Below are positions 4,056 to 39,797 of a stretch of 64,000 nucleotides of DNA, piece by piece. The stretch comes from Candidatus Omnitrophota bacterium. Lineage in GTDB: Bacteria; Omnitrophota; Gorgyraeia; Zapsychrales; Zapsychraceae. The notes under the pieces were generated by a model. The model did no database searches. It saw only the letters and a program-made list of their open reading frames with translations, and was not told the origin of the DNA. Location: positions 5,295 to 69,294 of the forward strand of contig JAJDCA010000014.1 of NCBI GenBank assembly GCA_029261055.1. The letters run 5' to 3'. Position 1 is the first letter of the stretch. Every line of letters begins with the position of its first letter. A program made the translations under genes and the position numbers.

Positions 4056-4166
4056 ATTATCTGAACAAGAAAACGTTTTTTCTACAAAATTATGCCAATA
4101 ACCTGCCTTCCTATCGTCAGGCAGCCACGCCACGGATTGGTTGAATTTATCAATATTGGAGGAAAT

Positions 4167-12417: not shown

Positions 12418-13490
12418 AAATCATTTCTTTTCAAACCTACAGATACGTTTTGCCTTTTGTGAATCCGATATCTGTGCGAGGTGTTAAGCTTTCGCAGAGG
12501 GAGGGGCTGATTATTCATTGCACGTCAGAACAAGGTATTGAAGGTTTTGGCGAGGCGGCCCCCTTACCGGGATTAAGTGAAGAAAGTTTAGAAGATGTTA
12601 TTGAAGAAGTCGAAATGTTTGAAAGTGTTTTGTTAGATCAGGATGTTCCAAAAAATATTGAAAAGTTTGAAGGCGCTTTGACAGAATGGCTTTCCGCATA
12701 TTCGCTTAGTCCATCGTTACAGTTTGCTATCGAAACGGCCATGTTAAATTTGATGGCGAATAGTCGTAAGATTCTTTTAAGTCAGCTATTCGAAGAATCC
12801 CCAGTAGAGAACATTAGTGTTAATGGTTTATTACAAGGGACAATGGATGAGGTTGTTTTACAAGCGAAGGCATGTTTGTTAAATGGATTTACCGCCATGA
12901 AATTAAAGGTTGGTCGAAAAGATATGGATGAAGATATTCGTAATGTTCAGGCGGTATCAGAAATTATTAGAGATAAAGCTTTGTTACATTTGGATGCGAA
13001 TCAGGCTTGGACATTAAAGGAAGCCGTTAAGTTTGGGCAAGCTATCGGTTGCGCGTGTGTGGATTATATTGAAGAGCCATTACAAGATGTGGCAGGGATA
13101 CCAGAATTTTTTCATCAGACATTAATCCCTGCGGCTTTGGATGAATCATTACAGAATTTAGATATTAAAGATGTTGGTTCGATCGAAGGGGCTGATGTTG
13201 TAGTTGTTAAACCTACTATTTTGGGCGGCATTGAAAAAACTTACCATCTTATCAAATATGCCAGAGAACGTGCTTTACGGTGTGTTGTCAGTTCCTCATT
13301 TGAATCTTCCATTGGAGTTACTACTTTAGCGCATTTGGCCGCAAGCCTCACACCTCGCACCGCAGCTGGATTAGATACCTTAAAATTCTTTCAAAAAGAT
13401 GTCTTGAAAAAAGGTGTTTTTATTCAAAAAGGTAAGATTCCTCTTTCTCAATGCCGGGTCCGGAAAGAAAATGTCCAAATCAATGTTTAA
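12405..13490 (+). CDS. menC: o-succinylbenzoate synthase (enolase superfamily)
   Basis: MKLKVG...LDANQAW...IEEP catalytic Lys/Asp/Glu pattern of the MR/MLE family. Sits in men context. Confidence 0.75.
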   Translation: MDFMKIISFQTYRYVLPFVNPISVRGVKLSQREGLIIHCTSEQGIEGFGEAAPLPGLSEESLEDVIEEVEMFESVLLDQDVPKNIEKFEGALTEWLSAYSLSPSLQFAIETAMLNLMANSRKILLSQLFEESPVENISVNGLLQGTMDEVVLQAKACLLNGFTAMKLKVGRKDMDEDIRNVQAVSEIIRDKALLHLDANQAWTLKEAVKFGQAIGCACVDYIEEPLQDVAGIPEFFHQTLIPAALDESLQNLDIKDVGSIEGADVVVVKPTILGGIEKTYHLIKYARERALRCVVSSSFESSIGVTTLAHLAASLTPRTAAGLDTLKFFQKDVLKKGVFIQKGKIPLSQCRVRKENVQINV

Positions 13491-17659: not shown

Positions 17660-17921
17660 TCTAATTTGGGATGCCGCGTTTATTCGGATTCTTAAAAAAT
17701 GGAAGAAAAAACATCCGCATTTAATTAAAACTTTCCAAGAAGTGCTCTCTGAATTTGTTAAAAATCCTTTTCAACCTTCCCTACGAACACACTGTTTGAG
17801 TGGTAAGTTAAAAGACTGTTGGGCTTGTAGTATTACTTACGAATATCGCGTAGTATTTAAATTTATTTCCAAGAATAAAGTGCTGCTTATCGATATTGGA
17901 ACGCATGACGAAGTATACTAA
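17649..17921 (+). CDS. RelE/YafQ-family type II toxin (mRNA interferase)
   Basis: C-terminal HCLSGKLKDCWACSITYEYRVVFKF..LLIDIGTHDEVY matches the YafQ/RelE signature. Confidence 0.65.
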   Translation: MMISLIWDAAFIRILKKWKKKHPHLIKTFQEVLSEFVKNPFQPSLRTHCLSGKLKDCWACSITYEYRVVFKFISKNKVLLIDIGTHDEVY

Positions 17922-19299
17922 TTATCCTCCGCAGGTTTGTTTTAAAATCCAATCAAATAAAATCTTTATTATTTGCGGGCAGCAAATTGTAACATATGCG
18001 CAGTTTTTTGATGCTGTTGGTGGTGTGATTGATTATTTTCAATCAAGCGGAATTAAGTCTAAAGATCGTGTTGGAATTTGCTGCGCTAATAGTGTTGAGT
18101 ACGTGGCAGCATTAATAGCCCTGTGGCGTATTGGCACTGTCGCTTGTCTTTTGAGTCCGCGCTTACCACAGGAGGCGTTGCAGCAGCAATGTAGCAATTT
18201 GAGTTGTCAGAATGTTTTAACGAGCTTTCCTGAAGTGCCCTATTCAGATAAATTAACAGAAACAAATCCAAAATGGTCTTTGCCGGTAGATCAAGAGGCT
18301 ACGATTATGTTTACCTCCGGCAGTAGTGCCTCGCCCAAAGCGGTTTTGCATACGATTGGTAATCATTATTTCAGTGCCAAGGGCGCGAATGTTCATATTC
18401 CGTTAGTCGCTGGGGATCGATGGTTATTAACGCTTCCATTGCATCACGTCGGGGGTTTAAGTATTTTATTTCGTGCACTTTTGGCCGGGGCAACACTGGT
18501 TATTCCCGAGAAAGATGAGCCTATTGAGGCGGCAATACGGCGCTACGGCATTACGCATGTATCGATGGTGCCGACGCAGATTTATCGTTTATTAGGGGAA
18601 AATGAAGAAGGTGATTTAAAAAGTTTGAAGGCGATTCTTGTCGGCGGAGGGCCGATACCGGAAGCCCTTTTACAAAAAGCAATGGAAAAAGGTTTCCCGG
18701 TTCATACGACGTACGGCTTAACAGAAATGGCTTCGCAAGTTGCCACGTCAAACGTGTTGACGTCGGAAACTATTTCAAATGGCGGTAGAGTGTTGGAGGA
18801 TAGAGAAGTAAATGTTTCTGAAGAAGGTGAAATTTTAGTGCGTGGCAAGACGCTTTTTCAAGGTTATGTAGAAGGCGGGCACATTGATTGTTCGTTTGAC
18901 GCAGGCGGTTGGTTCGCAACCGGTGATTTAGGTGAGCTCAACGACGAAGGTTATTTAAAAGTGACTGGACGTAAAGATAATATGTTTATCTCCGGTGGCG
19001 AAAATATTCAGCCGGAAGAAATTGAACGGCATTTGTGTCGGTTAGAAGGCGTTGAGGAGGCTATCGTCATTCCCGTAGAACATGCGGAATTTGGCTTTCG
19101 CCCGGTGGCGTTTATAAAGTACATGAATGGAAAATCAATAACCTCCGAAGAAATCAAAAGAACTCTGCAACAATATCTCCCTAAATTCAAAATTCCCGAT
19201 ACCTTTTACGATTGGCCGGAAGGCATTATTAGTGAGGGGATTAAGCCAAGTCGGCTAGTATTTAAGCATTATCTTGAGCGAACAATTCCACGATCTTAG
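17896..19299 (+). CDS. menE: o-succinylbenzoate-CoA ligase (adenylate-forming enzyme)
   Basis: AMP-binding motifs TSGSSASPK, YGLTE and GDLG, in men context. The start is uncertain (17896 or 17905). Confidence 0.75.
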   Translation: MERMTKYTNYPPQVCFKIQSNKIFIICGQQIVTYAQFFDAVGGVIDYFQSSGIKSKDRVGICCANSVEYVAALIALWRIGTVACLLSPRLPQEALQQQCSNLSCQNVLTSFPEVPYSDKLTETNPKWSLPVDQEATIMFTSGSSASPKAVLHTIGNHYFSAKGANVHIPLVAGDRWLLTLPLHHVGGLSILFRALLAGATLVIPEKDEPIEAAIRRYGITHVSMVPTQIYRLLGENEEGDLKSLKAILVGGGPIPEALLQKAMEKGFPVHTTYGLTEMASQVATSNVLTSETISNGGRVLEDREVNVSEEGEILVRGKTLFQGYVEGGHIDCSFDAGGWFATGDLGELNDEGYLKVTGRKDNMFISGGENIQPEEIERHLCRLEGVEEAIVIPVEHAEFGFRPVAFIKYMNGKSITSEEIKRTLQQYLPKFKIPDTFYDWPEGIISEGIKPSRLVFKHYLERTIPRS

Positions 19300-26182: not shown

Positions 26183-26797
26183 ATGGAACCTTTAAGCGCT
26201 TTAGGATCAATGGGGCTTTTGATGGGGAGTGGGTGGGCGGCCGGTATCAATTTATATTTAACAGCCGCAGGCCTTGGCATTGCGCATCGTTTGGGTTGGG
26301 TTTTACTTCCAGGCCAGATGGACGTATTAGCCCATCCTGTTGTCATCACGGTAGCCATTGTGCTCTATTTGATTGAATTTTTTGCCGATAAATTTCCCTA
26401 CGTGGATTCCGCCTGGGACACGGTGCACACCTTTATCCGCCCGATTGGAGGTCTTGCTTTGGGGTATATGGCGATGAGCGGTACTAACCCGGCATATCAA
26501 TATGCCACAGCGCTTTTTGTTGGCACGCTTGCACTGGATTCGCATTTGACCAAAGCAACAGCGCGTGCCGCTATTAATACCTCACCTGAACCCGTCACAA
26601 ATACCGTTGCCAGCGTTTCTGAAGATATCAGTGTCTTGGGGGCATTGTACCTAATTATTAAACATCCTGTCGTTATATCTATCTTAGTCATCATCTTTGT
26701 GGTGTTTTCTATTTGGTTTTTAAAGAAAATGTTTTATTTAGTGAAGAAAATTTTTAAATCTAAAAAGGGTAAGCAAGTTGTGAAAGTTGACACTTAG
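26183..26797 (+). CDS. polytopic inner-membrane protein (DUF4126-like)
   Basis: Multiple hydrophobic helices and a Gly-rich N-terminus. The family assignment is from memory. Confidence 0.4.
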   Translation: MEPLSALGSMGLLMGSGWAAGINLYLTAAGLGIAHRLGWVLLPGQMDVLAHPVVITVAIVLYLIEFFADKFPYVDSAWDTVHTFIRPIGGLALGYMAMSGTNPAYQYATALFVGTLALDSHLTKATARAAINTSPEPVTNTVASVSEDISVLGALYLIIKHPVVISILVIIFVVFSIWFLKKMFYLVKKIFKSKKGKQVVKVDT

Positions 26798-26995
26798 GCG
26801 CCCAGCAATTAGGAGCATTATTTTTGCTTGGTCTCTTGAATGAAGTTTGATATACTTGCCTCATTAATTTTTATCACCATAAATTTCATCCCCTCATAAT
26901 AATTTCCCCAGAAAGGAGTAAAGATAAACACGTATCGTGTATGTAGAAAATTGTCAGGAAAATTAAATAACGATATATTCAAGGGGGGATCCAAA

Positions 26996-27820
26996 ATGAC
27001 TCAAGAAATAACAAAAATAGCGCTATTTAAAGGGAAGAAAATTCGTCGAACTTTTCGAGATGGGCAGTGGTGGTTTGCTGTTGCTGATGTTGTAGAAATT
27101 TTAACAGACGCCGCGAATATTACGGATTATATTAAGAAGATAAGAAAGAGGGATGAAGAATTATCCAAAGGGTGGGGACAAATTGTCACCCCCCTTCCAA
27201 TTAAAACGTCAGGCGGTAAACAAAAAGTGAATTGTGCTAACACAGAAGGAATATTCCGCATTATTCAATCTATTCCATCCAAGAAAGCTGAGCCCTTTAA
27301 ACGTCGGCTAGCCAGAGTAGGGAAAGAACGCATTGATGAAATTGAAAACCCTGAGTTGGCAATGCAAAGGGCAAAGGCGCTTTATGAAAAGAAAGGATAT
27401 CCCAAAGATTGGATTGAAAAGCGGATGCGAGGCATTGCTGTCCGGCAGAAGCTTACGGATGAATGGGATGTTCGTGGTGTTGAGACAGAGCTTGAATATG
27501 CCATATTGACGAATGAGATTATGCAAGGGGCATTTGATTTTGATGTAGAAGATTACAAAAAATATAAAGGTCTTAAGCGGGAAAATTTGCGTGATCATAT
27601 GACGGATTTGGAACTTATCCTTACAATGCTTGGAGAGGCAACAACTACAACGATCACCCAAGATAGGGATTCACAAAGGTTTCCTGAGTTACAAAAGGAT
27701 GCCAAAGACGGTGGCGCCGTTGCTGGGAGGACGCGTAAGGACATCGAGTATCAAACGAAAAAGAAAATTGTATCAAGAAAGAATGTTCTTTTTAAACAGA
27801 AAACAGAAAAGATTCACTAA
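26996..27820 (+). CDS. Bro-N domain protein with a RhuM/DinD-like C-terminal region (phage-associated antirepressor-like)
   Basis: WWFAVADVVEIL, NTEGIFRII and KAEPFKRRLARVG match the Bro-N pattern. GGGG ribosome-binding site before the ATG at 26996 (the track ORF begins with TTG at 26951). Confidence 0.6.
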   Translation: MTQEITKIALFKGKKIRRTFRDGQWWFAVADVVEILTDAANITDYIKKIRKRDEELSKGWGQIVTPLPIKTSGGKQKVNCANTEGIFRIIQSIPSKKAEPFKRRLARVGKERIDEIENPELAMQRAKALYEKKGYPKDWIEKRMRGIAVRQKLTDEWDVRGVETELEYAILTNEIMQGAFDFDVEDYKKYKGLKRENLRDHMTDLELILTMLGEATTTTITQDRDSQRFPELQKDAKDGGAVAGRTRKDIEYQTKKKIVSRKNVLFKQKTEKIH

Positions 27821-27836
27821 ACGAAAGGATAAAACA

Positions 27837-28265
27837 ATGAGTTTAAACAGTGTTAATGTTATGGGAAATTTGACGCGGGATCCAGAGTTGAAGTATACGA
27901 CATCGGGTAAAAGTATTTGTAATATTTCGATTGCGAATAATCGTGTCTATTCAAAAGGTGGAGAGAAAGTTACGGAAACATCGTATTTTGATGTTGAAGT
28001 GTGGGGCGTGGTTGGTGAAAATTGCGCTAAATATTTAGCTAAAGGGAGTGGTGTTATTGTTGAAGGGCGTCTTAAACAAGATCGTTGGGAAAAAGATGGG
28101 AAGACTCAAAGTCGTGTAAGAATATCTGCCAATAATATTCATTTTTTACCTAAAAGAGATGGTGGAGCCGGACAATCGTCAGGCGCGCAACAACCAGCTG
28201 CAGCTGCTTATGCGGCAACCACCGCCGAAAAAAAACCACAAGACTCTGTTGCCTGGGATGAATAA
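27837..28265 (+). CDS. ssb: single-stranded DNA-binding protein with an atypical C-terminus
   Basis: OB-fold N-terminus (NSVNVMGNLTRDPELKYT..G) and a Gln/Ala-rich linker. Ends ...SVAWDE rather than the canonical DIPF tip. Confidence 0.75.
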   Translation: MSLNSVNVMGNLTRDPELKYTTSGKSICNISIANNRVYSKGGEKVTETSYFDVEVWGVVGENCAKYLAKGSGVIVEGRLKQDRWEKDGKTQSRVRISANNIHFLPKRDGGAGQSSGAQQPAAAAYAATTAEKKPQDSVAWDE

Positions 28266-29052
28266 ATTTATCAAAAATATGATTAGCCCCTATCTCAAAA
28301 CTTCAATTGTGTCGCGGGTCCTGTCGCATCCAAATAGAGGTTTTGGGATAGTGGTTAAGAAATTAACCTATCTATTCAGCTTAGTTTTTGTTCTTGCTGG
28401 AAGTCATCTGTCTTTGGCTGCCACAGGTAGTCATTTTGTCTATAACGAGCTTTCAACAAAAACCGGAAAGAGGCTTAAGACATATCATAAAACCCTTACA
28501 GAAGATTCTTCAGGTCAGATAAAAATACAACGTAGTCTGAAGGGTAAGAATTATACGCAGGATGAGACATATGTCTTAGATTCAGAGTATGCCACCCTTA
28601 GTTGGTCTGTTAAACGGGCAGACAAAGGGACGGATTATTCCGGAGGTAGAGAAGGAAATGTTCTTTACATCAAGGGTAAGTTGGCAGGCAAGTCTATTGA
28701 TAAAGAAATCACACTTGATGATCGCCCTTTGTATAACCATCCGAAAGTGAACCTCACAAAATTTGTCCTTTCCGATCAGGATAATATTGAATTCTGGGGG
28801 TTGCGCAAAGCAACTCTTATGAAATATGTTATGCAGGCGAAGAAGATGGGGGAAGAAATAATTACGGTTGATGGCCAAGCTATTGATACGATTAAAGTTT
28901 ATTTCAGTCCAACAGGACCTCTTAAAAAATATTACCGCCGCACTTATTATTTCCGCAAATCAGACGGTCTTTTTATAAAAAAGAAACCCTCCAAAGGCAA
29001 AACGACTGTGTTAGACATCAGTCATCAAGCATCAGACGCCAGTAAAAAATAA
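28258..29052 (+). CDS. hypothetical secreted protein (264 aa)
   Basis: Its start overlaps the ssb stop. A hydrophobic signal-like segment ends ...LSLAA. Confidence 0.4.
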   Translation: MNKFIKNMISPYLKTSIVSRVLSHPNRGFGIVVKKLTYLFSLVFVLAGSHLSLAATGSHFVYNELSTKTGKRLKTYHKTLTEDSSGQIKIQRSLKGKNYTQDETYVLDSEYATLSWSVKRADKGTDYSGGREGNVLYIKGKLAGKSIDKEITLDDRPLYNHPKVNLTKFVLSDQDNIEFWGLRKATLMKYVMQAKKMGEEIITVDGQAIDTIKVYFSPTGPLKKYYRRTYYFRKSDGLFIKKKPSKGKTTVLDISHQASDASKK

Positions 29053-29102: not shown

Positions 29103-29873
29103 TTAGTCTTTAATCTTCTTACGACGAGCTTGAACAAAGGCGTGTTGTAAGGCGATGTAGGGGTCGATCGCGTCTTCGGTGAAGGTTTCGTAGGCATCAC
29201 GGACATGAAAGGAAAAGTTATTAACGCGTCGAACAGGTCGCATCACAGCAAAGGCTTTTTCCGATTCTACATCAAATATACCAAACCAGGTAAAAGGGCT
29301 GAAAGCAGCATCACCGATAAAACCAAGAACTTCGCGTGTGGTGGCTGGGCCGAATAGCGGAAGCATAAGAAAGCGCCCTTCACCCATTCCCCAAACAGCA
29401 AAAGTTTGGCCAAAATCTTCGTCTTGCACTTCAAGGTTAAAAACAGCATCTGCCGGATCAAAAAAACCTCCTAGACCAACTGAAGAGTTTATAAGTAATC
29501 GGCCGAATTCAGTGGAAGCCCCTTTGAGTTTTCCTTGGAAGAGGCAGCTAAAAAGACGGACAGGGGTTTTAATATTAACAAAAACATTGTTGATACTTTT
29601 TTGTACTTTTTTTGGTACTAAGAAGTCATATCCTTTGGAAATGGGAGTGAATAAATGAAATAATTTATCATTAAGTTTAAAGAATTTACGGTTCATGTTT
29701 TCCCAAGGGTCATAAATAGGATCTTTTGGTTCCCCGTTGTCCCAATCATTTTCAAGGTCGAGATCATCTTCAAGAAATAACTGTTCTTGTGCGTGAAGTG
29801 GTGTGGTTAAGAAAGAAAGGGGGGTGAGAAAAATACTGAATATTAGGAAAGCCTGCACGTAAAGTTTTTTCAT
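29103..29873 (-). CDS. mlaA: MlaA/VacJ-family outer-membrane lipoprotein
   Basis: Signal peptide, DPWENMNR and EDFGQT motifs. Last gene of the mla operon. Confidence 0.75.
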   Translation of the reverse strand: MKKLYVQAFLIFSIFLTPLSFLTTPLHAQEQLFLEDDLDLENDWDNGEPKDPIYDPWENMNRKFFKLNDKLFHLFTPISKGYDFLVPKKVQKSINNVFVNIKTPVRLFSCLFQGKLKGASTEFGRLLINSSVGLGGFFDPADAVFNLEVQDEDFGQTFAVWGMGEGRFLMLPLFGPATTREVLGFIGDAAFSPFTWFGIFDVESEKAFAVMRPVRRVNNFSFHVRDAYETFTEDAIDPYIALQHAFVQARRKKIKD

Positions 29874-29877
29874 AAGA

Positions 29878-30495
29878 TTATCCTTTTTTTCTTAAATCAG
29901 TCATGAGTTTTTCAAAACTCGATCGATTTAAGATACTATTAAATTGGCTACGATAGTTGCCGATAATACTTACACCCTCAATTGTCACGTCATATATTTT
30001 CCAAGTGTTGGTATTATTGATCAGGCTAAAATCAATGGAGAATTTATCACCATTCGCAGTATAAACATATGTTTGAACTTTGCTGCGGTTTCCTTTCATC
30101 ATCGTACGGATATAGTCTACACGCTCTCCACGATAAGTGTCTGTTTTTCCAAGATAAACTCTTTTAAGGGTAGATGTAAACGCAGTAATAAATTCTTTTC
30201 TTTCTTCAGGGGTGCGCTGTCGCCAGTGATGGCCCAGGGCGCGTTTGGACATTTCTTCTAAATTAAAATGCGGTTCTAAAAGTTGCCAGATGCGAGCTTG
30301 TCGCTCTATTAAATTTTTGGCACCGGCTAGTGTAGGATCTTGAAGTATTTCAATGCCATCTTCAACGACAGCGAGGATTATTTCATCAGGTTTTTTCTCT
30401 GTCTGACTGAAGGCAGGTATTCCCATCAGAAGGTTTATAATAAGGGCAAGGGATGTAATGTGTTTTATAGGTATCATAGTTTTTTTACTCATCAT
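29878..30495 (-). CDS. mlaC: MlaC/Ttg2D-like periplasmic phospholipid-binding protein
   Basis: Signal peptide, ~200 aa, sits between mlaD and mlaA. Confidence 0.6.
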   Translation of the reverse strand: MMSKKTMIPIKHITSLALIINLLMGIPAFSQTEKKPDEIILAVVEDGIEILQDPTLAGAKNLIERQARIWQLLEPHFNLEEMSKRALGHHWRQRTPEERKEFITAFTSTLKRVYLGKTDTYRGERVDYIRTMMKGNRSKVQTYVYTANGDKFSIDFSLINNTNTWKIYDVTIEGVSIIGNYRSQFNSILNRSSFEKLMTDLRKKG

Positions 30496-30928
30496 CGACT
30501 ACAAAATGTTTAATAACACCTTCTAAGTCGAAAGGGGGTTCTGTATCAAAAATAGTTCCGTTAGATCCAATCAAATCATCAGAAGCTCCGGGTGTAATGG
30601 CGATGTACTTTTCGCCTAATAAACCTTTGGTTCGAATTGAGGCGATGGCGTCTTCTTGAATTTCAATATTTTTACGGATCGACATGCTCACAGTCGCCTG
30701 ATAATTCTCTAATTCAATATTTTTAATGGTGCCAACTTTAACGCCGGCAATTTCAACATTTGTATCTTTTTTAAGCCCGGTGACTGAACTAAAAATAGCT
30801 TTTATAGGATAATAATTCTTTTGATTAAAAATGTCAACTTGTCCTAATTGGATAGAGGTATACACAATACACAATAAACCAACGGAAATAAATAAGCCGA
30901 CACTTAGTTCAATATCAAATTTTTTCAT
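30485..30928 (-). CDS. mlaD: MCE-domain protein MlaD
   Basis: N-terminal transmembrane helix plus an MCE domain (VTGLKKDTNVEIAGVKVGTI). Confidence 0.75.
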   Translation of the reverse strand: MKKFDIELSVGLFISVGLLCIVYTSIQLGQVDIFNQKNYYPIKAIFSSVTGLKKDTNVEIAGVKVGTIKNIELENYQATVSMSIRKNIEIQEDAIASIRTKGLLGEKYIAITPGASDDLIGSNGTIFDTEPPFDLEGVIKHFVVDDE

Positions 30929-30972
30929 TTTTGTAGACCCTTCTTAATTCGTAGGTTAGGAGTTGTAAGGTA

Positions 30973-31701
30973 TTATTCAATTTCCCCTTTGAGAAATCTT
31001 CGGATGGTCGGATTATCAGAAGCAATAAATTCTTCAGGAGTTCCGACCGAAAGGATTTCTCCTTCGTGAAGCATCGCCACTTTATCGACGATATTAAAGA
31101 TTGTTGGGATTTCATGCGAAACAATGAGTGCGGTTAAATTTCGTTTTTGTTGTAAGCGTTTAATTAATTGATGAATGGTGTTGGTAATAATGGGATCTAA
31201 ACCTGTTGTCGGTTCGTCAAAGAGTATCGCTTCCGGATCCATGACCAGGCATCGGGCCAGGGCAACACGTTTTTTCATGCCGCCACTTAATTGTGCAGGA
31301 TATTTTTCTTCGCATCCTTTTAAATCAACGTTGGCTAGTTCTTGGGCAACTTTTTCTTTTATTTGTGAAAAGCTTAACTTTGTTTTTTCTTTTAAAGGAA
31401 AGGCGATGTTTTCAAAAACTGTAAGAGAATCAAAAAGCGCGGCCGATTGAAAAACGATACCAAGCTGTTCTTTGATTTTTTTTAATTTCTTTCCACTAAG
31501 TCGGCTAATATCTTGCTGATGGATTAAGACTTGTCCGCTATCAGGTTTGAGTAATCCGATAACAGACTTGAGTAAAACAGATTTACCTTTACCACTTCCC
31601 CCTATAAGAGCGACGATTTGGCCTTTCTTAATTTCCAAATGCACGCCTTTGAGGACGGTATGTTCTCCAAAATTTTTGTGGACATCAATAATTTTAATCA
31701 T
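30973..31701 (-). CDS. mlaF: ABC transporter ATP-binding protein MlaF
   Basis: Walker A (GGSGKGKS), LSGGMKKR signature, Walker B (ILFDEPT), H-loop. Confidence 0.8.
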   Translation of the reverse strand: MIKIIDVHKNFGEHTVLKGVHLEIKKGQIVALIGGSGKGKSVLLKSVIGLLKPDSGQVLIHQQDISRLSGKKLKKIKEQLGIVFQSAALFDSLTVFENIAFPLKEKTKLSFSQIKEKVAQELANVDLKGCEEKYPAQLSGGMKKRVALARCLVMDPEAILFDEPTTGLDPIITNTIHQLIKRLQQKRNLTALIVSHEIPTIFNIVDKVAMLHEGEILSVGTPEEFIASDNPTIRRFLKGEIE

Positions 31702-31745
31702 AATTTAGAGATTGTAAATAAATATATATTGGTTATTTACAACTC

Positions 31746-32540
31746 CTAGGCAAAAAGTAATATAGACGTTAATATATAATCCCAAATTAATACCACCACA
31801 GAAGACAGCACTACAGCTTCAGTTGTGGCCCTACTGACACCTTCTGCGCCAAAATGTGATTTTAAGCCGGCAAAGAATCCTTTGTAGCAGCTTATCCAAG
31901 TGATTAATAAACCAAAACTTAATGATTTATAGAAGCACAGTGTCAAATCTTTAAATAATATTGAATCCGCAATGGCCCCGTAATATGTGCCTGTGGCGAG
32001 GCCTGTTAATTCGACACCTACGAGGTGTCCGCCCCAGATGCCTACGACAACAAAAATGGCCGTTAAAAGAGGTAGGCAAATGATGCCTGCGATTAAATTT
32101 GGGATAATTAAATATTTATGCGGGTTTAAGGCCATCGCATCAAGGGCGTCAATTTGATCAGAAATACGCATAATGCCAAGTTGAGCGGTCAGTGCCGAGC
32201 CTGCTCTTCCTGTTACCATTAGAGCTGTGATCACCGGCCCTAATTCTCGAATTAAAGATAAGGCTGTGACGGAGCCAACGCTTGATTCCGCTCCAACAGT
32301 TACTAAAACATAATATACCTGAAGGGTAAGTACCATCCCGGTAAATAGACCTGTCAGAATAACGATAGGAAGGCTTTTAACACCTATAAAATGAATTTGC
32401 TTAATTATTCGGCTGGGGAGATAGGGCGGAAAAATCATATAATACAGATTTAACGCAAGAAAGAGTCCCATCTGGCCTAATTCACGTAAAAAAGTTAAGG
32501 CATTTTTGCCTAAAGATTGAAAGGGAAGTATAATATTCAT
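31746..32540 (-). CDS. mlaE: ABC transporter permease MlaE
   Basis: ~260-aa polytopic permease of MlaE type, upstream of mlaF. Confidence 0.75.
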   Translation of the reverse strand: MNIILPFQSLGKNALTFLRELGQMGLFLALNLYYMIFPPYLPSRIIKQIHFIGVKSLPIVILTGLFTGMVLTLQVYYVLVTVGAESSVGSVTALSLIRELGPVITALMVTGRAGSALTAQLGIMRISDQIDALDAMALNPHKYLIIPNLIAGIICLPLLTAIFVVVGIWGGHLVGVELTGLATGTYYGAIADSILFKDLTLCFYKSLSFGLLITWISCYKGFFAGLKSHFGAEGVSRATTEAVVLSSVVVLIWDYILTSILLFA

Positions 32541-32601
32541 TAGAGGCGCATTTTATCAGTAATTTTTAAAATTGGAAATATTTTCTTAAAAATTATTATA
32601 C

Positions 32602-34122
32602 TTAAGATATAGGTATAGAGTAATTTAAAGTTTTGTTTTTCAATACACGTCGACAATAAAATATAAAAATAATAAAAGCAATAATGCCAACGGCAAATAA
32701 AGTCCATTCCACTATCATACGTTCAATGCTACGGTTTTGAATATTAATCATATTGCCTGTCAGGCAGCCGAGATAAACGTAGAGGATGGTGCTTGGGAGT
32801 CGTCCTATACTTGACGCATAGATAAAATCTTTTAACCGCATGCTGGATAACCCGCAAATGTAATTTAAAAACATGGAACTGACAATTGGGATGTTACGTA
32901 ATAAGAGAAGAATTTTCCATCCTTTTTCCTCAATCAATTGATCGATGGCTTGCCATTGGGGGTTGGTTTTAATTCTTTTTGCAACGGATTCGCGGCACCA
33001 ATGGCGAGCCAAAAGAAATTTGATGATGGATGAGATTGTAGAAGCGATGGTAACGAGAATAATGCCTTGAGTCATTCCAAATAGAAATCCAGCACTTATT
33101 TTTAATATGAGAGCAGGTAGAAATAAACCTGCGAGCAGCAGGTATAGGCCCAGAAAGAGGAAAGGTGCAAAAATATGAAAATCTTTAATCCAATCGAGAG
33201 ATTGAAGATACATTTGTTTTACGCCTAATTTTTGTCCTAAAATACCGAATGCCGCTATCATCAATAACCAGCAAGCGAGTTTAACAAAGCCTAAATAGCT
33301 TTTATGTGTAGTTTTTTTTACAAGGGCCGGATTTTCATCGGCTTTCTTAGGCATTGGAATGTTTGGCGCCAGTAATTGGTTTATAAGTTCATAATCTTGA
33401 GGTTTATCTACATCAATGCCCATTTCCGGGTGGGGAGATGTAAAAATACGGACTTTGGCTTTTAAAAGGGAAGAAAGGATGATTTCAATTTCTGGAAAGG
33501 TTTTTCCTGTACATCCCAATAGTTCTAAAATTTTGTTAGGCTCTTTGCGTACTTTTCGGATGCGACCAATATAAGGAAGACATTTTAATAAAAGGCTGGA
33601 TTTACGAATGTAGTAAATATTTGTTCCGGTGTATTCTTTTCCCCCAATTGTCATATACGATCTGTCTTTAGACGGTAATCCAGCCTTGATTAATGTGGAT
33701 TTTTCAACATAATGCATCACGATATCCGCCTCTGATTGATCAATATTATGTAACGTGTTTTTAATAATTCTTGGCGTCAGAAGAGGGGCATCACAAAATG
33801 AAATGACATATCCTTGATGGGATTTTGCCATTTTATAAATAAAGAATTTAATATAAAGGACGGCATGAACAAGGTTTTGCAGAAGACTTGAGCCCTGAGC
33901 AAGACGTTTTTTGATATATTGCATTGAATTTAAATTGTCTAATTGCTTAGTGCCGACTACAATGATATTTTTAAAAATGTTGCTTTTGTGAAAAGCCTCG
34001 ATAACCCAGTCCAGCATAGGTTTGCCGGCAATCGGTAAGTGGGCCTTCATAGTGCAGGTATATTGTTGAGGCCAGTCTTTACGTTTGCCTCCAGCTAATA
34101 TTATAAGATTAAAATTCTTCAT
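32602..34122 (-). CDS. fusion protein: N-terminal nucleotidyltransferase (LicC/MobA-like NTP-transferase fold) plus C-terminal DedA/TVP38 membrane domain
   Basis: N-terminus LIILAGGKRKD...IAGKPMLDW resembles the sugar-/choline-phosphate cytidylyltransferase signature. The C-terminal ~230 aa are polytopic with a DedA-like pattern. First gene of the mla operon. Confidence 0.55.
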   Translation of the reverse strand: MKNFNLIILAGGKRKDWPQQYTCTMKAHLPIAGKPMLDWVIEAFHKSNIFKNIIVVGTKQLDNLNSMQYIKKRLAQGSSLLQNLVHAVLYIKFFIYKMAKSHQGYVISFCDAPLLTPRIIKNTLHNIDQSEADIVMHYVEKSTLIKAGLPSKDRSYMTIGGKEYTGTNIYYIRKSSLLLKCLPYIGRIRKVRKEPNKILELLGCTGKTFPEIEIILSSLLKAKVRIFTSPHPEMGIDVDKPQDYELINQLLAPNIPMPKKADENPALVKKTTHKSYLGFVKLACWLLMIAAFGILGQKLGVKQMYLQSLDWIKDFHIFAPFLFLGLYLLLAGLFLPALILKISAGFLFGMTQGIILVTIASTISSIIKFLLARHWCRESVAKRIKTNPQWQAIDQLIEEKGWKILLLLRNIPIVSSMFLNYICGLSSMRLKDFIYASSIGRLPSTILYVYLGCLTGNMINIQNRSIERMIVEWTLFAVGIIAFIIFIFYCRRVLKNKTLNYSIPIS

Positions 34123-34182
34123 AGGTATAAATTATAACAAAGTATTAGACAAATTTATTTAATAAAAGTTGATATTTAATTC

Positions 34183-34211
34183 TTGTAGATAAATGCAGAG
34201 ATTAGTATAAT
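34183..34211 (+). promoter_or_regulatory. promoter: TTGTAG, 17-nt spacer, TATAAT
   Basis: Perfect -10. Lies in the divergent intergenic region. Confidence 0.5.
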
Positions 34212-34254
34212 CAAATTAATAAATATTTCAACATGTAGCTTAGCGGAGGAAATT

Positions 34255-34977
34255 ATGAATAATAAATTACAAGAGATTTTGAAGAAGAATGCAGAATTTG
34301 AAAAAGAATCTCCGTATAACTTTTGTGATCGATGGTGTGAGCGTTGTGATTTTAAAATTCAACGACGATGTAAGTTGTATCTGGATGAATTAGACAGGCG
34401 TGCAACGAATATTGCCCACGGTAAACCTGAAAATGATTTAGAGATTCTTAAACAAGATTTTGAAGATCAGATGGAAGAGATGGAGGATTCGATTGACGAA
34501 TGGGCGGAAGAAGAAGGGGTTGATCCTTTCGAATTAGAACCCGATGAAGGTTTTGTTGAGGAGATACGAAAAAAAGAAGAAGAGCTGCACAAGCATCCTT
34601 TACAAAAAGTGACCTACCAATATATGAAAATATCACATGATTTTCTTAAAGAAGAATATTACAGTAAGCAAATTCTTACACAAGATATGAGGCTTAATTA
34701 TGAAATAGTGGCATGGTATCATAGTCTTCTTCCTGCGAAGATGCATCGTGCTCTGTGTGGTCTTTATGTACCGGATGTTCATGATGAAGAGGATTATGCC
34801 TTGTGTGATGCCGTTGCACAATTTGCTGTTTGTCGAAAATCTATTAGTTTGTCGGTTGCTTCCTTGCGTGAAATCGGACAGCAAAATAGCCAGTTAAAGA
34901 AGCGGATAACTCTACCTCTTACACTGCTCCACAATATGGCCAGTCAGATTGATATTATTTTAAAAGAGATTGGATAG
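34255..34977 (+). CDS. hypothetical protein with an N-terminal CxxxCxxC-x7-C motif and an acidic region
   Basis: CDRWCERCDFKIQRRC. Otherwise unrecognised. Confidence 0.4.
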   Translation: MNNKLQEILKKNAEFEKESPYNFCDRWCERCDFKIQRRCKLYLDELDRRATNIAHGKPENDLEILKQDFEDQMEEMEDSIDEWAEEEGVDPFELEPDEGFVEEIRKKEEELHKHPLQKVTYQYMKISHDFLKEEYYSKQILTQDMRLNYEIVAWYHSLLPAKMHRALCGLYVPDVHDEEDYALCDAVAQFAVCRKSISLSVASLREIGQQNSQLKKRITLPLTLLHNMASQIDIILKEIG

Positions 34978-35039
34978 TTCGACAGGTTTGTTTTACTTGT
35001 TTGAGAACCACAAGTAGAGAAGGTGTTTTAAAAATTTAT

Positions 35040-35113
35040 CGGGGCGTAGCGCAGTTTCCGCCACACAGCGTGGCGGATCCGCCAAAGTTTTGATGGCGGA
35101 GGCTAGCGCGCAG
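35040..35113 (+). pseudogene. partial duplicate of the tRNA-Pro 5' end (nt 1-29) interrupted by a 44-nt GC-rich double hairpin
   Basis: 35040-35056 equals tRNA nt 1-17, and 35101-35112 equals tRNA nt 18-29. The 35057-35100 insert folds as CCGCCAC-ACAGC-GTGGCGG and TCCGCCA-AAGTTTTGA-TGGCGGA. Confidence 0.5.
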
Positions 35114-35128
35114 AAAAAAAGAAATTAT

Positions 35129-35205
35129 CGGGGCGTAGCGCAGTTGGCTAGCGCGCAACGTTCGGGACGTTGAGGTCGACGGTTCAAATCCGTCCGCCCC
35201 GACCA
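35129..35205 (+). tRNA. tRNA-Pro (anticodon CGG), CCA encoded
   Basis: Manual cloverleaf: acceptor CGGGGCG/CGCCCCG, D-stem GCGC, anticodon stem CAACG/CGTTG, loop TTCGGGA, T-arm GACGG-TTCAAAT-CCGTC, discriminator A, CCA. Confidence 0.85.
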
Positions 35206-35600: not shown

Positions 35601-38885
<3,285 letters not shown>

Positions 38886-38909: not shown

Positions 38910-39797
38910 ATGAAACAGTATATTGATGAATTTATTAATTATCTTGCGGTTGAAAGAGGGTTAGCTAACAATACGCTCTTGGCTTACGGACGGGATTTAG
39001 CGAAATATGAGCGGTATTTTGAAGAAAAAAATATTCAAGAACCAAGTCATGTTAAGCGTGATGATATTACAGATTACATGTATTATGAAAAAAATGAGGG
39101 GTTGTCTGCTAATTCTATCTGCCGGAGTTTAGCGGCTATAAAGATGTTTCATCGATTTTTAGTGCGGGAAAGATTAGTGCAAGAAGATCCTACCCATCTA
39201 GTTGAGACGCCAAAGTTGTGGAAGCGAATCCCAGGGGTTTTGACTAGCGCGGAAGTTGAGGCTATGATTAATGCTCCTAAAGGATGGAAGTGGCAAGCGG
39301 TTAGAGATAGGGCGATTTTGGAGTTATTTTATGCCAGCGGGATGCGTGTTTCCGAACTGTCCAATTTATCTTTGGAGAATATTAATTTAGATGTCGGGTA
39401 TGTTCGTTGTACCGGTAAAGGACGTAAGGAACGCATTGTGCCGATAGGGAACAAAGCCAAGGAAGCCGTAAGAAAGTATTGTGAAACAGCGCGAACGAAA
39501 TTAGTTAAGTATCCTATGACGATGGAATTATTTTTAAGCCGGTTAGGTAAAAGAATCAGTCGGCAGAGTCTTTGGAGCATTATCAAGCTTTATGCCAGGG
39601 TAGCCGGCATTAAAAAGGAAATAAAACCACACACACTTCGACATTCTTTTGCAACACATCTTTTACAACACGGTGCGGATTTACGTTCGGTTCAGGAAAT
39701 GTTGGGACATTCGGATATTTCTACAACGCAGATTTATACGCATGTCGATAAGGAACGGTTAAAATCTATTCATAAAGAATTTCATCCTCGGGGTTAG
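38910..39797 (+). CDS. xerD: site-specific tyrosine recombinase XerD
   Basis: C-terminus HTLRHSFATHLLQHGADLRSVQEMLGHSDISTTQIYTHV closely matches XerD R-H-R-H-Y catalytic region. Confidence 0.75.
   Translation: MKQYIDEFINYLAVERGLANNTLLAYGRDLAKYERYFEEKNIQEPSHVKRDDITDYMYYEKNEGLSANSICRSLAAIKMFHRFLVRERLVQEDPTHLVETPKLWKRIPGVLTSAEVEAMINAPKGWKWQAVRDRAILELFYASGMRVSELSNLSLENINLDVGYVRCTGKGRKERIVPIGNKAKEAVRKYCETARTKLVKYPMTMELFLSRLGKRISRQSLWSIIKLYARVAGIKKEIKPHTLRHSFATHLLQHGADLRSVQEMLGHSDISTTQIYTHVDKERLKSIHKEFHPRG

What the first reader, a model, noticed from the sequence alone, without database searches (positions are those of the whole stretch)
32602..34122. Nucleotidyltransferase-DedA fusion protein heading the mla lipid-transport operon
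The first gene of the minus-strand operon (fusion gene, mlaE, mlaF, mlaD, mlaC, mlaA) fuses a soluble LicC/MobA-type NTP-transferase domain (LIILAGGKRKD, IAGKPML) to a polytopic DedA/TVP38-type membrane domain. DedA proteins are implicated in flipping or recycling of lipid-linked carriers and phospholipids. A covalently attached cytidylyl/nucleotidyl-transferase would place head-group activation and lipid translocation in one polypeptide, next to the Mla machinery.
Basis: partly seen in the sequence, partly recalled or inferred. Interest (0 to 1): 0.55.

Follow-up and report, generated by a model that had tools for sequence, protein, structure and literature searches.

The report
Nucleotidyltransferase–DedA fusion heading Mla operon
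One real gene joins a cytoplasmic nucleotide-transferring enzyme of unknown substrate to a DedA-type membrane lipid transporter; in related uncultured bacteria these are two neighbouring genes that always sit beside the Mla lipid-transport operon, which gives an untested handle on what this poorly understood class of lipid transporters carries.

Summary
Window 32602-34122 (-) is one uninterrupted 506-aa ORF. Residues 1-252 are a TTHA0179-like (MobA/IspD-fold) nucleotidyltransferase, 256-274 a disordered linker, and 275-506 a TVP38/YdjX-type (COG0398) DedA domain. It lies 61 nt upstream of mlaE-F-D-C-A.

New findings:
- The protein is a Rosetta-stone fusion. In most relatives (Omnitrophota MAGs, one Planctomycetia MAG) the two halves are separate, adjacent, tightly coupled genes. 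Only three fused forms were found.
- The pair belongs to a conserved eight-gene module: NTase, DedA, an orphan periplasmic beta-barrel "X" with carrier-like fold matches (window 28279-29052), and MlaEFDCA. The module occurs in two layouts.
- The NTase is not LicC-type. Its acceptor half matches only an uncharacterised structure (2dpw).
- A sister clade sits in TauE-permease / enolase-superfamily / NTase operons, often fused to a DAGK/YegS-type lipid kinase.

Best reading (inferred, about 0.4): the NTase makes a nucleotide-activated anionic head-group donor at the inner membrane, and DedA flips the resulting lipid. Periplasmic and outer-membrane traffic then goes through X and Mla.

Substrate, nucleotide and transport direction are unknown. 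This is a new variant of the known DedA-enzyme fusions, of moderate interest.

The parts
32602..34122 (-). Fusion gene, 506 aa: nucleotidyltransferase, linker, DedA domain
   Evidence: One ORF. Pfam PF12804 and PF09335 both score above their cut-offs. Orthologous fusions occur in L001 and L002.
33367..34122 (-). N-terminal TTHA0179-like nucleotidyltransferase domain (residues 1-252), cytoplasmic
   Evidence: Matches 2dpw at E 2.6e-16; the family profile matches it at 1.2e-65; Foldseek target TM-score 0.82 to 2dpw. Family-invariant residues are L9, D111, R192, K193, D237 and D239, plus K26 and R154. pLDDT is above 90.
33301..33366 (-). Lys-rich flexible linker (residues 253-274)
   Evidence: pLDDT is below 50 for residues 256-274. 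This is the position of the stop/start junction in the split orthologues. The Lys-rich sequence directly precedes TM1, which fits an N-in topology.
32605..33300 (-). C-terminal TVP38/YdjX-type (COG0398) DedA membrane domain (residues 275-506)
   Evidence: PF09335 at E 5.6e-27. Hydrophobic segments at 276-296, 314-373, 404-422 and 466-496. Close homologues are named TVP38/TMEM64 or YdjX. Clade-specific basic residues K341 and R441.
31746..32540 (-). mlaE (ABC permease)
   Evidence: PF02405 at 5e-75; TIGR00056 above its cut-off.
30973..31701 (-). mlaF (ABC ATPase)
   Evidence: PF00005 at 1.4e-35; the MlaF model NF008809 at 1.6e-58, below its curated cut-off.
30485..30928 (-). mlaD (MCE-domain protein)
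   Evidence: TIGR04430 scores 143 bits against a cut-off of 135.
29878..30495 (-). mlaC-like periplasmic lipid carrier
   Evidence: PF05494 at 1.2e-46. The best NCBIfam model is HpnM at 2.6e-23, below its cut-off.
29103..29873 (-). mlaA (outer-membrane lipoprotein)
   Evidence: PF04333 at 4e-57.
28279..29052 (+). Gene X: orphan secreted all-beta protein, convergent on mlaA; the conserved third partner of the NTase-DedA pair
34204..34231 (-). Promoter-like site upstream of the fusion gene (TTGAAA-16-TATACT)
   Evidence: Consensus scan, 10 of 12 matches. An extended -10 element, TGTTATAAT, also lies at 34131-34139, 8 nt before the ATG. These are consensus matches only.

Best explanation
The ORF is a genuine bifunctional inner-membrane protein. 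A cytoplasmic, Mg-dependent nucleotidyltransferase of the uncharacterised TTHA0179-like family is tethered by a ~20-residue flexible linker to a COG0398 (TVP38/YdjX-type) DedA lipid scramblase or flippase. It is a Rosetta-stone fusion of an operonic gene pair, and it belongs to a conserved Omnitrophota envelope-lipid module: NTase, DedA, a periplasmic beta-barrel protein X with carrier-like fold matches, and MlaEFDCA.

Proposed mechanism:
1. At the cytoplasmic face, the NTase condenses an NTP (most likely CTP) with a small anionic phospho- or carboxy-compound. The product is an NMP/NDP-activated head-group donor. The precedents are CpgD (CDP-glycerate), LicC (CDP-choline) and PntC (CMP-AEP).
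2. The head group is installed on a membrane lipid by an enzyme that has not been identified.
3. The attached DedA domain moves that anionic lipid, or its phospho-lipid acceptor, between inner-membrane leaflets.
4. X, MlaC, MlaA and MlaFED carry it between the inner and outer membranes.

What is shown: the domain identities, the single ORF, the split/fused alternation, the synteny with X and Mla, and conservation of most catalytic-type residues.

What is inferred: catalytic activity, the nucleotide, the acceptor, the DedA cargo, physical coupling of the two halves, and the direction of transport.

My probability for this specific chemistry is about 0.4. My probability that the two halves act together in envelope-lipid handling linked to Mla is about 0.65.
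For: Architecture.

Rosetta-stone relationship:
- The NTase and DedA are separate, adjacent, same-strand genes in L013, L015, L016, L017, L022 (Omnitrophota), L018 (Planctomycetia) and L082.
- The junctions are real. L017 has a stop, 5 nt, then ATG. L018 has an ATGA overlap. L016 has a stop and an ATG 8 nt later. None of these junction regions contains an N.
- Fused forms occur only in the window, L001 and L002.
- An NJ tree puts all DedA-linked NTases in one clade and implies at least two fusion or fission events.

Module:
- The layout NTase, DedA, X, then convergent mlaA-C-D-F-E is seen in L002, L013, L015, L016, L017 and L082.
- The fused gene directly upstream of mlaE is seen in the window (61-nt gap) and in L001 (7-nt overlap).
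- The flanking genes outside the module differ between loci.

NTase domain:
- K26, D111, R154, R192, K193, D237 and D239 are conserved across the close subfamily; six of these are invariant across the broader alignment.
- After 2dpw, the nearest folds are all cytidylyltransferases.

DedA domain:
- It belongs to the COG0398 branch, which the literature regards as phospholipid flippases or scramblases, not UndP flippases.
- The NTase-paired clade has extra conserved basic residues, K341 in re-entrant loop 1 and R441, where other COG0398 members have Thr/Leu and Met. This fits an anionic cargo.

Family partners that point to lipid head-group chemistry:
- Fusion to DAGK_cat+YegS_C lipid kinases recurs in several phyla.
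- In the CpgB/CpgD pathway, a DAGK-type lipid kinase and a soluble cytidylyltransferase that activates a phospho-acid cooperate to build an anionic outer-membrane lipid.
- PF12804 enzymes are often fused to pathway partners in cell-surface tailoring pathways.
Against: - No substrate is known for any member of the TTHA0179-like family, and no literature on it was found.
- The acceptor-binding half has no characterised homologue.
- The sister clade's conserved partners are a TauE/SafE permease, an enolase-superfamily enzyme, RidA, HAD and Metallophos. None of these is obviously lipid-related.
- In most DedA-linked members the loop after LAGG is acidic (ENEDW). It lacks the Arg/Lys that canonical enzymes use. 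Only the window has KRK there.
- The module contains no head-group transferase.
- AF2 gives no confident inter-domain packing: pTM is 0.58.
- The pair occurs without Mla in L018 and L022.
- The convergent layout is proximity, not co-transcription.
- All carriers are uncultured MAGs. The window's own genome was not found among the GTDB representatives.
Confidence: 0.42

Rival explanations
1. Flip-and-trap. The NTase acts directly on a lipid phosphate, for example turning phosphatidate into a CDP-diacylglycerol-like product. The DedA domain flips a phospho-lipid delivered by retrograde Mla transport to the cytoplasmic leaflet. The tethered enzyme then nucleotidylates it. This gives direction to an otherwise equilibrative scramblase and returns the lipid to biosynthesis. 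The kinase-fused relatives would perform the same salvage from a neutral lipid that flips without help (kinase step, then NTase step).
For: - Fusion to DAGK_cat/YegS lipid kinases recurs. In known kinase-NTase bifunctional enzymes the two steps are sequential (established knowledge).
- Kinase-fused forms lack a DedA neighbour and DedA-linked forms lack the kinase, a complementary pattern.
- The module contains no head-group transferase, so the NTase product may itself be the lipid intermediate.
- The paired DedA clade has extra basic residues.
- A nucleotidyltransferase acting on a lipid-linked phosphate has been proposed for Caulobacter CC_1153.
Against: - All characterised enzymes of this fold use soluble acceptors.
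- The crystallised family member TTHA0179 is a soluble 232-aa protein.
- TauE, the enolase-superfamily enzyme, RidA and HAD in the sister clade have no role in this scheme.
- No membrane-binding element is evident in the N-domain.
Confidence: 0.2
2. Solute supply. The DedA domain is not a lipid transporter here. It imports or exports the small anionic substrate or product of the NTase, the role that the TauE/SafE permease plays in the sister operons. The Mla neighbourhood would then be phylogenetic inertia within one lineage.
For: - Each NTase clade has its own adjacent polytopic membrane protein. TauE is present in 8 sister-clade loci, and DedA in all 10 DedA-clade loci.
- L014 has TauE, MR_MLE and NTase with a convergent DedA gene.
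- L018 and L022 have the pair but no Mla genes nearby.
- DedA proteins have historically been linked to oxyanion uptake (my recollection; not checked here).
Against: - Current evidence makes DedA proteins lipid flippases or scramblases.
- The pair stays next to X and Mla through a rearrangement that moved it from one end of the mla operon to the other, while the flanking genes differ.
- In L001 the fusion gene overlaps mlaE by 7 nt.
Confidence: 0.15
3. Regulatory domain. The N-domain has lost catalysis and serves as a nucleotide- or metabolite-sensing module that gates or localises the DedA transporter.
For: - The loop after LAGG lacks the canonical basic residue in most DedA-linked members.
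- Non-catalytic proteins of this fold exist; eIF2B gamma appears among the profile hits.
Against: - D111, K26, R154, R192-K193 and D237/D239 are strictly conserved in the DedA-linked clade, just as in the kinase- and MR_MLE-linked clades.
- The window's own protein has KRK in the loop.
- TTHA0179 also lacks an Arg at the canonical loop position, so this may simply be a family trait.
Confidence: 0.1
4. Artefact. Two adjacent genes were joined by a sequencing or assembly error, such as a lost stop codon or a frameshift.
For: Most relatives have two genes. MAG-derived sequence can carry indels.
Against: - The ORF is continuous, and its 22-residue linker is in frame with both conserved domains.
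- Two other independent assemblies, L001 and L002, are fused in the same register.
- In the split forms the two genes are in different frames with distinct stop and start signals. A single error would therefore not reproduce the window's linker.
Confidence: 0.03

Closest known systems
TTHA0179 of Thermus thermophilus (PDB 2dpw), 'hypothetical transferase'
   Same: It is the only solved protein that matches the whole N-domain: E 2.6e-16 with the single sequence, 1.2e-65 with the family profile, and target TM-score 0.82. It has the same LAGG loop, D-x-P, R-K-x-P and D-V-D-K-P motifs.
   Different: It is a stand-alone soluble protein of 232 aa with no known function, so it gives no information on the substrate. 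Identity is about 26%.
DedA-enzyme fusions already catalogued: COG0398 DedA with a pyridine-nucleotide disulfide oxidoreductase, and COG0586 DedA with PAP2 or rhodanese (Todor et al. 2023, PMC10127716)
   Same: A polytopic DedA domain is covalently joined to a soluble enzyme presumed to act on or near the transported lipid. The more distant relatives of the window's DedA clade are such Pyr_redox fusions (P0008-P0013) or Pyr_redox neighbours (L083, L085).
   Different: The partner here is a nucleotidyltransferase, which that survey does not list. The enzyme is N-terminal. The pair is tied to X and the Mla operon.
CpgB/CpgD pathway for ceramide diphosphoglycerate in Caulobacter crescentus (PMC12275187, PMC13228409)
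   Same: A soluble alpha/beta/alpha cytidylyltransferase activates an anionic phospho-acid (CDP-glycerate) as a head-group donor for an anionic outer-membrane lipid. The same pathway uses a DAGK-type lipid kinase. In the family studied here the equivalent kinase is fused to the NTase.
   Different: CpgD is COG1213/LicC-like and belongs to a different family. The Caulobacterales member of the family studied here hits only 2dpw in the PDB. CpgD has no DedA or Mla linkage. This is an analogy of logic, not homology of the acceptor site.
LicC (CTP:phosphocholine) and PntC (CMP-aminoethylphosphonate) cytidylyltransferases, PF12804 (PMC6697681)
   Same: Same Pfam family and the same nucleotide-binding half. 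They activate head groups for cell-surface molecules and are often fused to pathway partners.
   Different: LicC aligns only to profile positions 4-88, at E 9.3e-8. The acceptor half is unrelated. No choline or phosphonate genes lie nearby.
IPCT/DIPPS bifunctional enzyme of Archaeoglobus (a cytidylyltransferase fused to a membrane CDP-alcohol phosphotransferase). This rests on my own recollection; no paper was retrieved.
   Same: A cytoplasmic cytidylyltransferase of this fold is tethered to a polytopic membrane domain that handles its product.
   Different: The membrane domain there is an enzyme (a CDP-alcohol phosphotransferase), not a DedA transporter. No CDP-OH_P_transf match is present in the window's protein.
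MlaFEDB-MlaC-MlaA phospholipid transport system
   Same: All five core components are present, in the order E-F-D-C-A, with above-threshold matches.
   Different: No MlaB (STAS) gene is in the operon. The MlaC scores better on the HpnM model than on the E. coli MlaC model. The system comes with three extra conserved partners: the NTase, DedA and X.
PetA, TMEM41B and VMP1 (COG0398-type and eukaryotic DedA scramblases)
   Same: Same DedA branch. The first re-entrant loop lacks acidic residues, which fits scrambling that does not depend on the proton-motive force.
   Different: The paired clade has additional conserved Lys and Arg residues (K341, R441) and a dedicated enzyme partner.

Membership tests
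MobA-like NTP transferase (Pfam PF12804; GT-A-like nucleotidyltransferase fold) | Profile score above the curated gathering threshold | tested here: met
   44.5 bits against a cut-off of 27, residues 7-137. PF02348 also passes, at 24.5 against 22.6.
MobA-like NTP transferase (Pfam PF12804; GT-A-like nucleotidyltransferase fold) | N-terminal Gly-rich loop (L-A-G-G) followed by a conserved Lys that contacts the NTP phosphates | tested here: met
   LAGG at residues 9-12 and K26 are invariant in the close subfamily. Their roles are assigned by analogy with GlmU, IspD and CpgD.
MobA-like NTP transferase (Pfam PF12804; GT-A-like nucleotidyltransferase fold) | Basic residue (Arg/Lys) in the loop immediately after the Gly-Gly | tested here: inconclusive
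   The window has K13-R14-K15. Most DedA-linked orthologues have acidic residues there (ENEDW, EDELW).
MobA-like NTP transferase (Pfam PF12804; GT-A-like nucleotidyltransferase fold) | Metal-binding Asp in a D-x-P motif after the central strand | tested here: met
   D111 (C-D-A-P) is invariant across 24 diverse family members. Metal binding itself was not tested.
MobA-like NTP transferase (Pfam PF12804; GT-A-like nucleotidyltransferase fold) | NTP + acceptor -> NMP/NDP-acceptor + pyrophosphate activity | not testable with these tools
   This needs an enzyme assay.
TTHA0179-like subfamily (PDB 2dpw) | Full-length homology, including the acceptor-side half with the R154, R192-K193-x-P195 and E233...D237-x-D239-K240 motifs | tested here: met
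   Residues 6-243 align to 2dpw residues 5-229. The profile scores E 1.2e-65. Target TM-score is 0.82. The motifs are conserved.
   LicC (1jyk) aligns only to profile positions 4-88, at E 9.3e-8. A Caulobacterales member of this family hits only 2dpw in the PDB. CpgD is described as COG1213.
DedA superfamily (VTT domain, PF09335) | Profile score above the gathering threshold over the core domain | tested here: met
   95.1 bits against a cut-off of 33.9, residues 335-452, covering 121 of 123 profile positions.
DedA subfamily COG0398 (TVP38/TMEM64/YdjX-like) | [quoted passage not shown] | tested here: met
   Homologues are named TVP38/TMEM64 or YdjX. Re-entrant loop 1, 'PALILKISAGFLFG', has no Asp or Glu. 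The criteria come from PMC10127716. The UptA model scores only 22.6 bits against a cut-off of 250.
DedA superfamily | Two re-entrant helices flanked by transmembrane helices | tested here: inconclusive
   The hydropathy profile and the AF2 secondary structure are compatible with this. The model coordinates could not be inspected, and no solved DedA structure appeared in the PDB search.
DedA superfamily | Lipid flipping or scrambling activity | not testable with these tools
   This needs reconstitution.
Mla lipid-transport operon | MlaE, MlaF, MlaD, MlaC and MlaA are all present and contiguous | tested here: met
   Pfam PF02405, PF00005, PF02470, PF05494 and PF04333 all score above threshold. 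MlaD also passes its equivalog cut-off.
Mla lipid-transport operon | MlaB (STAS) accessory subunit | tested here: not met
   No further ORF lies within 29103-34122. MlaB is not universal outside the Proteobacteria (established knowledge).
Rosetta-stone (gene-fusion) relationship | The two halves exist as separate proteins encoded by neighbouring genes in other genomes | tested here: met
   L013, L015, L016, L017, L018, L022 and L082.
IPCT/DIPPS-type cytidylyltransferase-membrane enzyme fusions | The membrane domain is a CDP-alcohol phosphotransferase | tested here: not met
   The only membrane-domain hit is PF09335. There is no CDP-OH_P_transf match.

The most novel reading that the evidence does not exclude
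The NTase-DedA pair, with X and Mla, is a previously unrecognised nucleotide-coupled lipid translocation system. The tethered enzyme chemically converts the lipid, or its head group, on the cytoplasmic face, for example by nucleotidylating a flipped phospho-lipid. This would give direction to a COG0398 DedA scramblase and feed an Mla-dependent route to or from the outer membrane. It would identify the first defined cargo class for this DedA branch, and a new nucleotidyltransferase family (TTHA0179-like) that acts in membrane-lipid metabolism.
Probability: 0.18. Interest if true: 0.8.

Novelty: new variant of a known kind. Interest (0 to 1): 0.55.

Why it matters
The cargo of most DedA proteins is unknown, and that is especially true of the COG0398 branch that includes eukaryotic TMEM41B and VMP1. 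A DedA clade that is fused or operonically paired with one specific enzyme gives a concrete biochemical entry point: find the enzyme's substrate and the cargo probably follows. This clade is also embedded in a module with Mla and a periplasmic barrel protein.

The result also gives the orphan TTHA0179 structure, solved in 2007 with no function assigned, a testable context. Its family partners are a DAGK-type lipid kinase, an enolase-superfamily enzyme, a TauE permease and DedA.

It adds two conserved accessory components, DedA and X, to an Mla system in a phylum whose envelope biology is essentially unexplored.

The limits are real. Every carrier of the DedA-linked form is uncultured, the chemistry is inferred, and both domains belong to known superfamilies.

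Tried and rejected
1. **Local phosphoesterase.** The window's Metallophos_2 ORF (35601-36326) was considered as a partner because Metallophos is fused to, or lies next to, some NTase relatives. It is unrelated to those proteins (E 1.6). The P0020 Metallophos domain also shows only superfamily-level similarity to the L003 neighbour. Lead dropped.

2. **Local enolase-superfamily gene.** The window's homologue at 12405-13490 was considered as the counterpart of the sister-clade partner. It is MenC, inside a menaquinone cluster.

3. **CpgD membership.** CpgD is COG1213/LicC-like, and its structures are not in the PDB copy. The Caulobacterales member of this family hits only 2dpw. CpgD is kept as an analogy only.

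4. **Internal start at M257** that could yield a free DedA protein. No Shine-Dalgarno-like sequence lies upstream.

5. **Riboswitch or regulatory RNA near the operon.** None was found; only tRNA-Pro and one sub-threshold chance hit.

6. **Broad genome scan.** The 24-sequence alignment (A2) was too divergent to derive search patterns. The 10-sequence close-subfamily alignment (A3) was used instead, so the distant family is under-sampled.

7. **Locating the window's own contig.** There was no exact record and no match above 52% identity in the GTDB representatives. The Omnitrophota assignment is inferred from relatives.

8. **afdb50 fold search for X.** The library was not available.

9. **Literature searches.** 'TTHA0179' returned no papers. 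'DedA + nucleotidyltransferase + fusion' returned one irrelevant paper. The four IPCT/DIPPS terms returned none.

10. **P0002 as an N-terminally truncated variant.** Rejected: the LAGG loop is in frame upstream, so the gene call is simply short.
Full report
**1. Observation**

Window 32602-34122 on the minus strand is a single 506-aa ORF from ATG to stop. Pfam places a MobA-like NTP-transferase domain at residues 7-137 (PF12804, 44.5 bits against a cut-off of 27). It places a VTT/DedA domain at 335-452 (PF09335, 95.1 bits against 33.9).

The next five genes on the same strand are MlaE, MlaF, MlaD, MlaC and MlaA, all above threshold. The gap to mlaE is 61 nt, and no terminator-like site lies in that gap. 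This block is the only minus-strand gene cluster among the 46 ORFs of at least 150 aa in the 64-kb window. GC skew dips across it, as expected for native genes read from the other strand.

**2. Anatomy of the protein**

- Residues 6-243 align end to end with the 232-residue Thermus protein TTHA0179 (PDB 2dpw, function unknown), E 2.6e-16.
- A Lys-rich stretch follows, and then the first transmembrane helix at 276-296. This puts the nucleotide-using domain in the cytoplasm.
- AlphaFold2 folds both halves with pLDDT mostly above 90. It leaves residues 256-274 disordered and gives a pTM of only 0.58. The picture is two autonomous domains on a flexible tether with no confidently predicted interface.
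- In a Foldseek search of the PDB, 2dpw comes first (target TM-score 0.82). It is followed by cytidylyltransferases (CMP-NeuAc, CMP-Kdo, CMP-Kdn and CMP-Pse synthetases, IspD, TarI), plus the uridylyltransferase GlmU. Nothing matches the DedA half.

**3. The N-domain family**

A profile of 24 family members hits 2dpw at 1.2e-65 over its whole length. GlmU, KdsB, IspD, TarI, CobY, LicC and MobA match only the nucleotide-binding first ~125 positions, with E no better than 2.6e-10. The family is thus a MobA/IspD-fold nucleotidyltransferase whose acceptor half has no characterised relative.

Residues L9, D111, R192, K193, D237 and D239 are invariant across the family. K26 is invariant in the close subfamily, and R154, G166, P195 and E233 are nearly invariant.

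One caveat concerns the loop after LAGG. It carries KRK in the window but is acidic in most DedA-linked orthologues. The nucleotide is also undetermined: the nearest folds use CTP, but the best NCBIfam models are MocA and MobA.

An exhaustive HMMER search of 1.84 billion representative proteins found only 782 clusters at E <= 0.001 and 20 at E <= 1e-30. Most are stand-alone proteins of about 250 aa. It is a small family.

**4. The membrane domain**

The closest relatives (42-52% identical, 232-249 aa) are annotated TVP38/TMEM64 or YdjX. That is the COG0398 branch of the DedA superfamily. The literature regards this branch as phospholipid flippases or scramblases close to eukaryotic TMEM41B and VMP1, not as undecaprenyl-phosphate flippases. 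Its listed fusion partners are pyridine-nucleotide disulfide oxidoreductases (PMC10127716).

More distant relatives of the window's domain are indeed fused to such oxidoreductases or lie next to them. One lies next to a phosphodiesterase instead.

The NTase-paired clade has its own signature. It has F-K-(V/I)-(F/S)-A-G where other members have L-T-L-G-A-G in re-entrant loop 1, L-R-N in loop 2, and I-G-R-L-P where others have M-L-P. This amounts to two extra conserved basic residues, K341 and R441. They fit an anionic cargo, though that is an inference.

**5. The fusion is a Rosetta stone**

Only three fused proteins were found: the window, P0002 (L001) and P0003 (L002). P0002 looks truncated at its N-terminus, but the LAGG loop is encoded in frame upstream, so the gene call is simply short.

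A scan of 185,579 GTDB species genomes, followed by a local phmmer census, showed a different arrangement elsewhere. In Omnitrophota MAGs L013, L015, L016, L017 and L022, and in Planctomycetia MAG L018, the NTase and DedA are separate, adjacent, same-strand genes. L082, a metagenome contig, has the same arrangement.

The junctions are real: a stop plus 5 nt before the ATG in L017, an ATGA overlap in L018, a stop plus 8 nt in L016, and no Ns in any of them.

A neighbour-joining tree (no bootstrap support, so only indicative) puts all DedA-linked NTases in one clade. The window and L001 are sisters, while L002 branches with the split forms. At least two fusion or fission events are implied.

**6. 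A conserved eight-gene module**

Clustering of neighbouring ORFs revealed a third partner, X. It is about 220 aa, has a signal peptide, and has no Pfam or NCBIfam match. It follows DedA in L002, L013, L015, L016, L017 and L082 and is convergent on mlaA. Its homologue in the window is the ORF ending at 29052, also convergent on mlaA.

- The common layout is NTase, DedA, X, and then mlaA-C-D-F-E on the opposite strand.
- In the window and in L001 the fused gene instead sits directly upstream of mlaE on the same strand. In L001 it overlaps mlaE by 7 nt.
- Genes outside the module differ between loci. The linkage therefore survives both a rearrangement and flank turnover.

The pair also occurs without Mla within the sequenced flanks in L018 and L022.

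**7. The sister clade**

The same close subfamily (38-52% identical) occurs in other Omnitrophota and in Planctomycetota, Verrucomicrobiota, Alphaproteobacteria and Spirochaetes, but in different company.

- An enolase-superfamily (MR_MLE) gene lies immediately upstream in 11 GTDB loci, and also in the four contigs carrying the Spirochaete protein P0007.
- A TauE/SafE permease lies upstream of that in 8 loci.
- Many members are fused at the C-terminus to a DAGK_cat+YegS_C lipid-kinase domain.
- Single examples are fused to Metallophos, RidA or HAD domains. RidA is also a neighbouring gene in L007-L010.
- L014 has TauE, MR_MLE and NTase together with a convergent DedA gene.

These partners mix soluble carboxylate or oxyanion chemistry with a lipid-type kinase. 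No single known pathway accounts for all of them.

**8. Mechanism**

The most economical reading borrows the logic of the Caulobacter ceramide-diphosphoglycerate pathway. There, a DAGK-type lipid kinase (CpgB) prepares the lipid, and a soluble cytidylyltransferase (CpgD) activates a phospho-acid as CDP-glycerate to build an anionic outer-membrane lipid. CpgD is COG1213/LicC-like and not a member of this family, so this is analogy only. LicC and PntC supply the same logic for other surface head groups.

I therefore propose the following.

1. The tethered NTase makes a nucleotide-activated anionic head-group donor at the membrane.
2. DedA flips the resulting lipid or its acceptor.
3. X and Mla handle the periplasmic and outer-membrane legs.

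I put this specific chemistry at about 0.4. I put the broader claim, that the two halves cooperate in Mla-linked envelope-lipid handling, at about 0.65.

Rival readings:

| Rival | Probability | For | Against |
|---|---|---|---|
| Direct nucleotidylation of a flipped lipid phosphate (flip-and-trap) | 0.2 | Kinase fusions; no head-group transferase in the module | All characterised enzymes of this fold use soluble acceptors |
| DedA as a solute transporter, analogous to TauE | 0.15 | Each NTase clade has its own adjacent membrane protein | Linkage to X and Mla survives rearrangement |
| Non-catalytic sensor domain | 0.1 | Acidic loop after LAGG in most orthologues | D111, K26, R154, R192-K193 and D237/D239 strictly conserved |
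| Assembly artefact | 0.03 | Most relatives have two genes | Independent fused orthologues in the same register |

**9. Comparison with what is known, and novelty**

DedA-enzyme fusions are known (PAP2, rhodanese, oxidoreductases). So are PF12804 enzymes fused to pathway partners, and so is Mla. Four things were not found in the literature searched:

- a nucleotidyltransferase partner for a DedA protein;
- the conserved NTase-DedA-X-Mla module;
- any functional context for the TTHA0179-like family;
- the X family.

I classify the finding as a new variant of a known kind.

**10. Limits**

- All evidence is comparative.
- Every carrier of the DedA-linked form is an uncultured MAG or metagenome contig.
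- The window's own genome was not located.
- Model coordinates could not be inspected.
- The tree has no support values.
- The convergent layout shows proximity, not co-transcription.

Noticed in passing
[not shown]
   Followed up: yes
L012, L014, L019, L020, L023-L028, L030 (GTDB loci); L007-L010: The sister clade of the NTase sits in conserved TauE/SafE-permease, enolase-superfamily (MR_MLE), NTase operons. It is often fused to a DAGK/YegS lipid-kinase domain and sometimes has RidA, HAD or Kelch/NanM-like neighbours. This appears to be an undescribed pathway, and it is present in the cultured Boseongicola aestuarii CECT 8489 (L027).
   Followed up: partly
window 35030-35056 and 35119-35145: A 27-nt direct repeat, 93% identical. 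The second copy covers 10 nt upstream of tRNA-Pro(CGG) (35129-35205) plus its first 17 nt. The first copy is an orphan duplicate 89 nt upstream. It may be a partial tRNA duplication or an old integration scar.
   Followed up: no
window 29021-29051 and 36329-36359: A 31-nt direct repeat, 84% identical, 7308 nt apart. It brackets the mla/fusion block plus ORF 34255-34977, tRNA-Pro, the acylphosphatase and the Metallophos_2 gene. My rough estimate of chance occurrence in this 9-kb region is below about 0.01. It may mark the rearrangement that relocated the NTase-DedA unit.
   Followed up: no
window 29103-34122 against the rest of the window: Extreme strand bias. All 40 other ORFs of at least 150 aa are on the plus strand; only the six-gene mla/fusion block is on the minus strand. 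GC skew dips from about 0.2 to 0.015-0.097 across 28-34 kb.
   Followed up: partly
window 4092-8639 (+) and 13647-17357 (+): Two giant ORFs (1515 and 1236 aa) with no Pfam match at E <= 1e-4. The second lies between menC and a menE-like AMP-binding gene in a menaquinone cluster (menB 10594-11451, menA 11536-12417, menC 12405-13490, AMP-binding 17896-19299).
   Followed up: no
window 34255-34977 (+): A 240-aa ORF divergent from the fusion gene across a 132-nt intergenic region. It has a Cys-rich N-terminus (C..WC.RC......RC) and no Pfam or NCBIfam match. It is not conserved beside the module in other loci. It has a strong GGAGGA ribosome-binding site, unlike the fusion gene.
   Followed up: partly
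window 29878-30495 (-): The MlaC-like protein scores better on the HpnM (hopanoid-associated MlaC paralogue) model (2.6e-23) than on the E. coli MlaC model (1.1e-10), both below cut-off. No MlaB/STAS gene is present in the operon.
   Followed up: no
window 34131-34139 (-): An extended -10 element, TGTTATAAT, ends 8 nt before the fusion gene's ATG, and no Shine-Dalgarno sequence is present. The mRNA may be leaderless or nearly so. This is a consensus match only.
   Followed up: no
window 26183-28265 and 38910-39797: Genes with a mobile-element flavour lie near the module: a DUF4126 membrane protein, a Bro-N domain protein (26951-27820), an SSB-like ORF (27630-28265), and a XerC/D-type tyrosine recombinase (38910-39797).
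   Followed up: no
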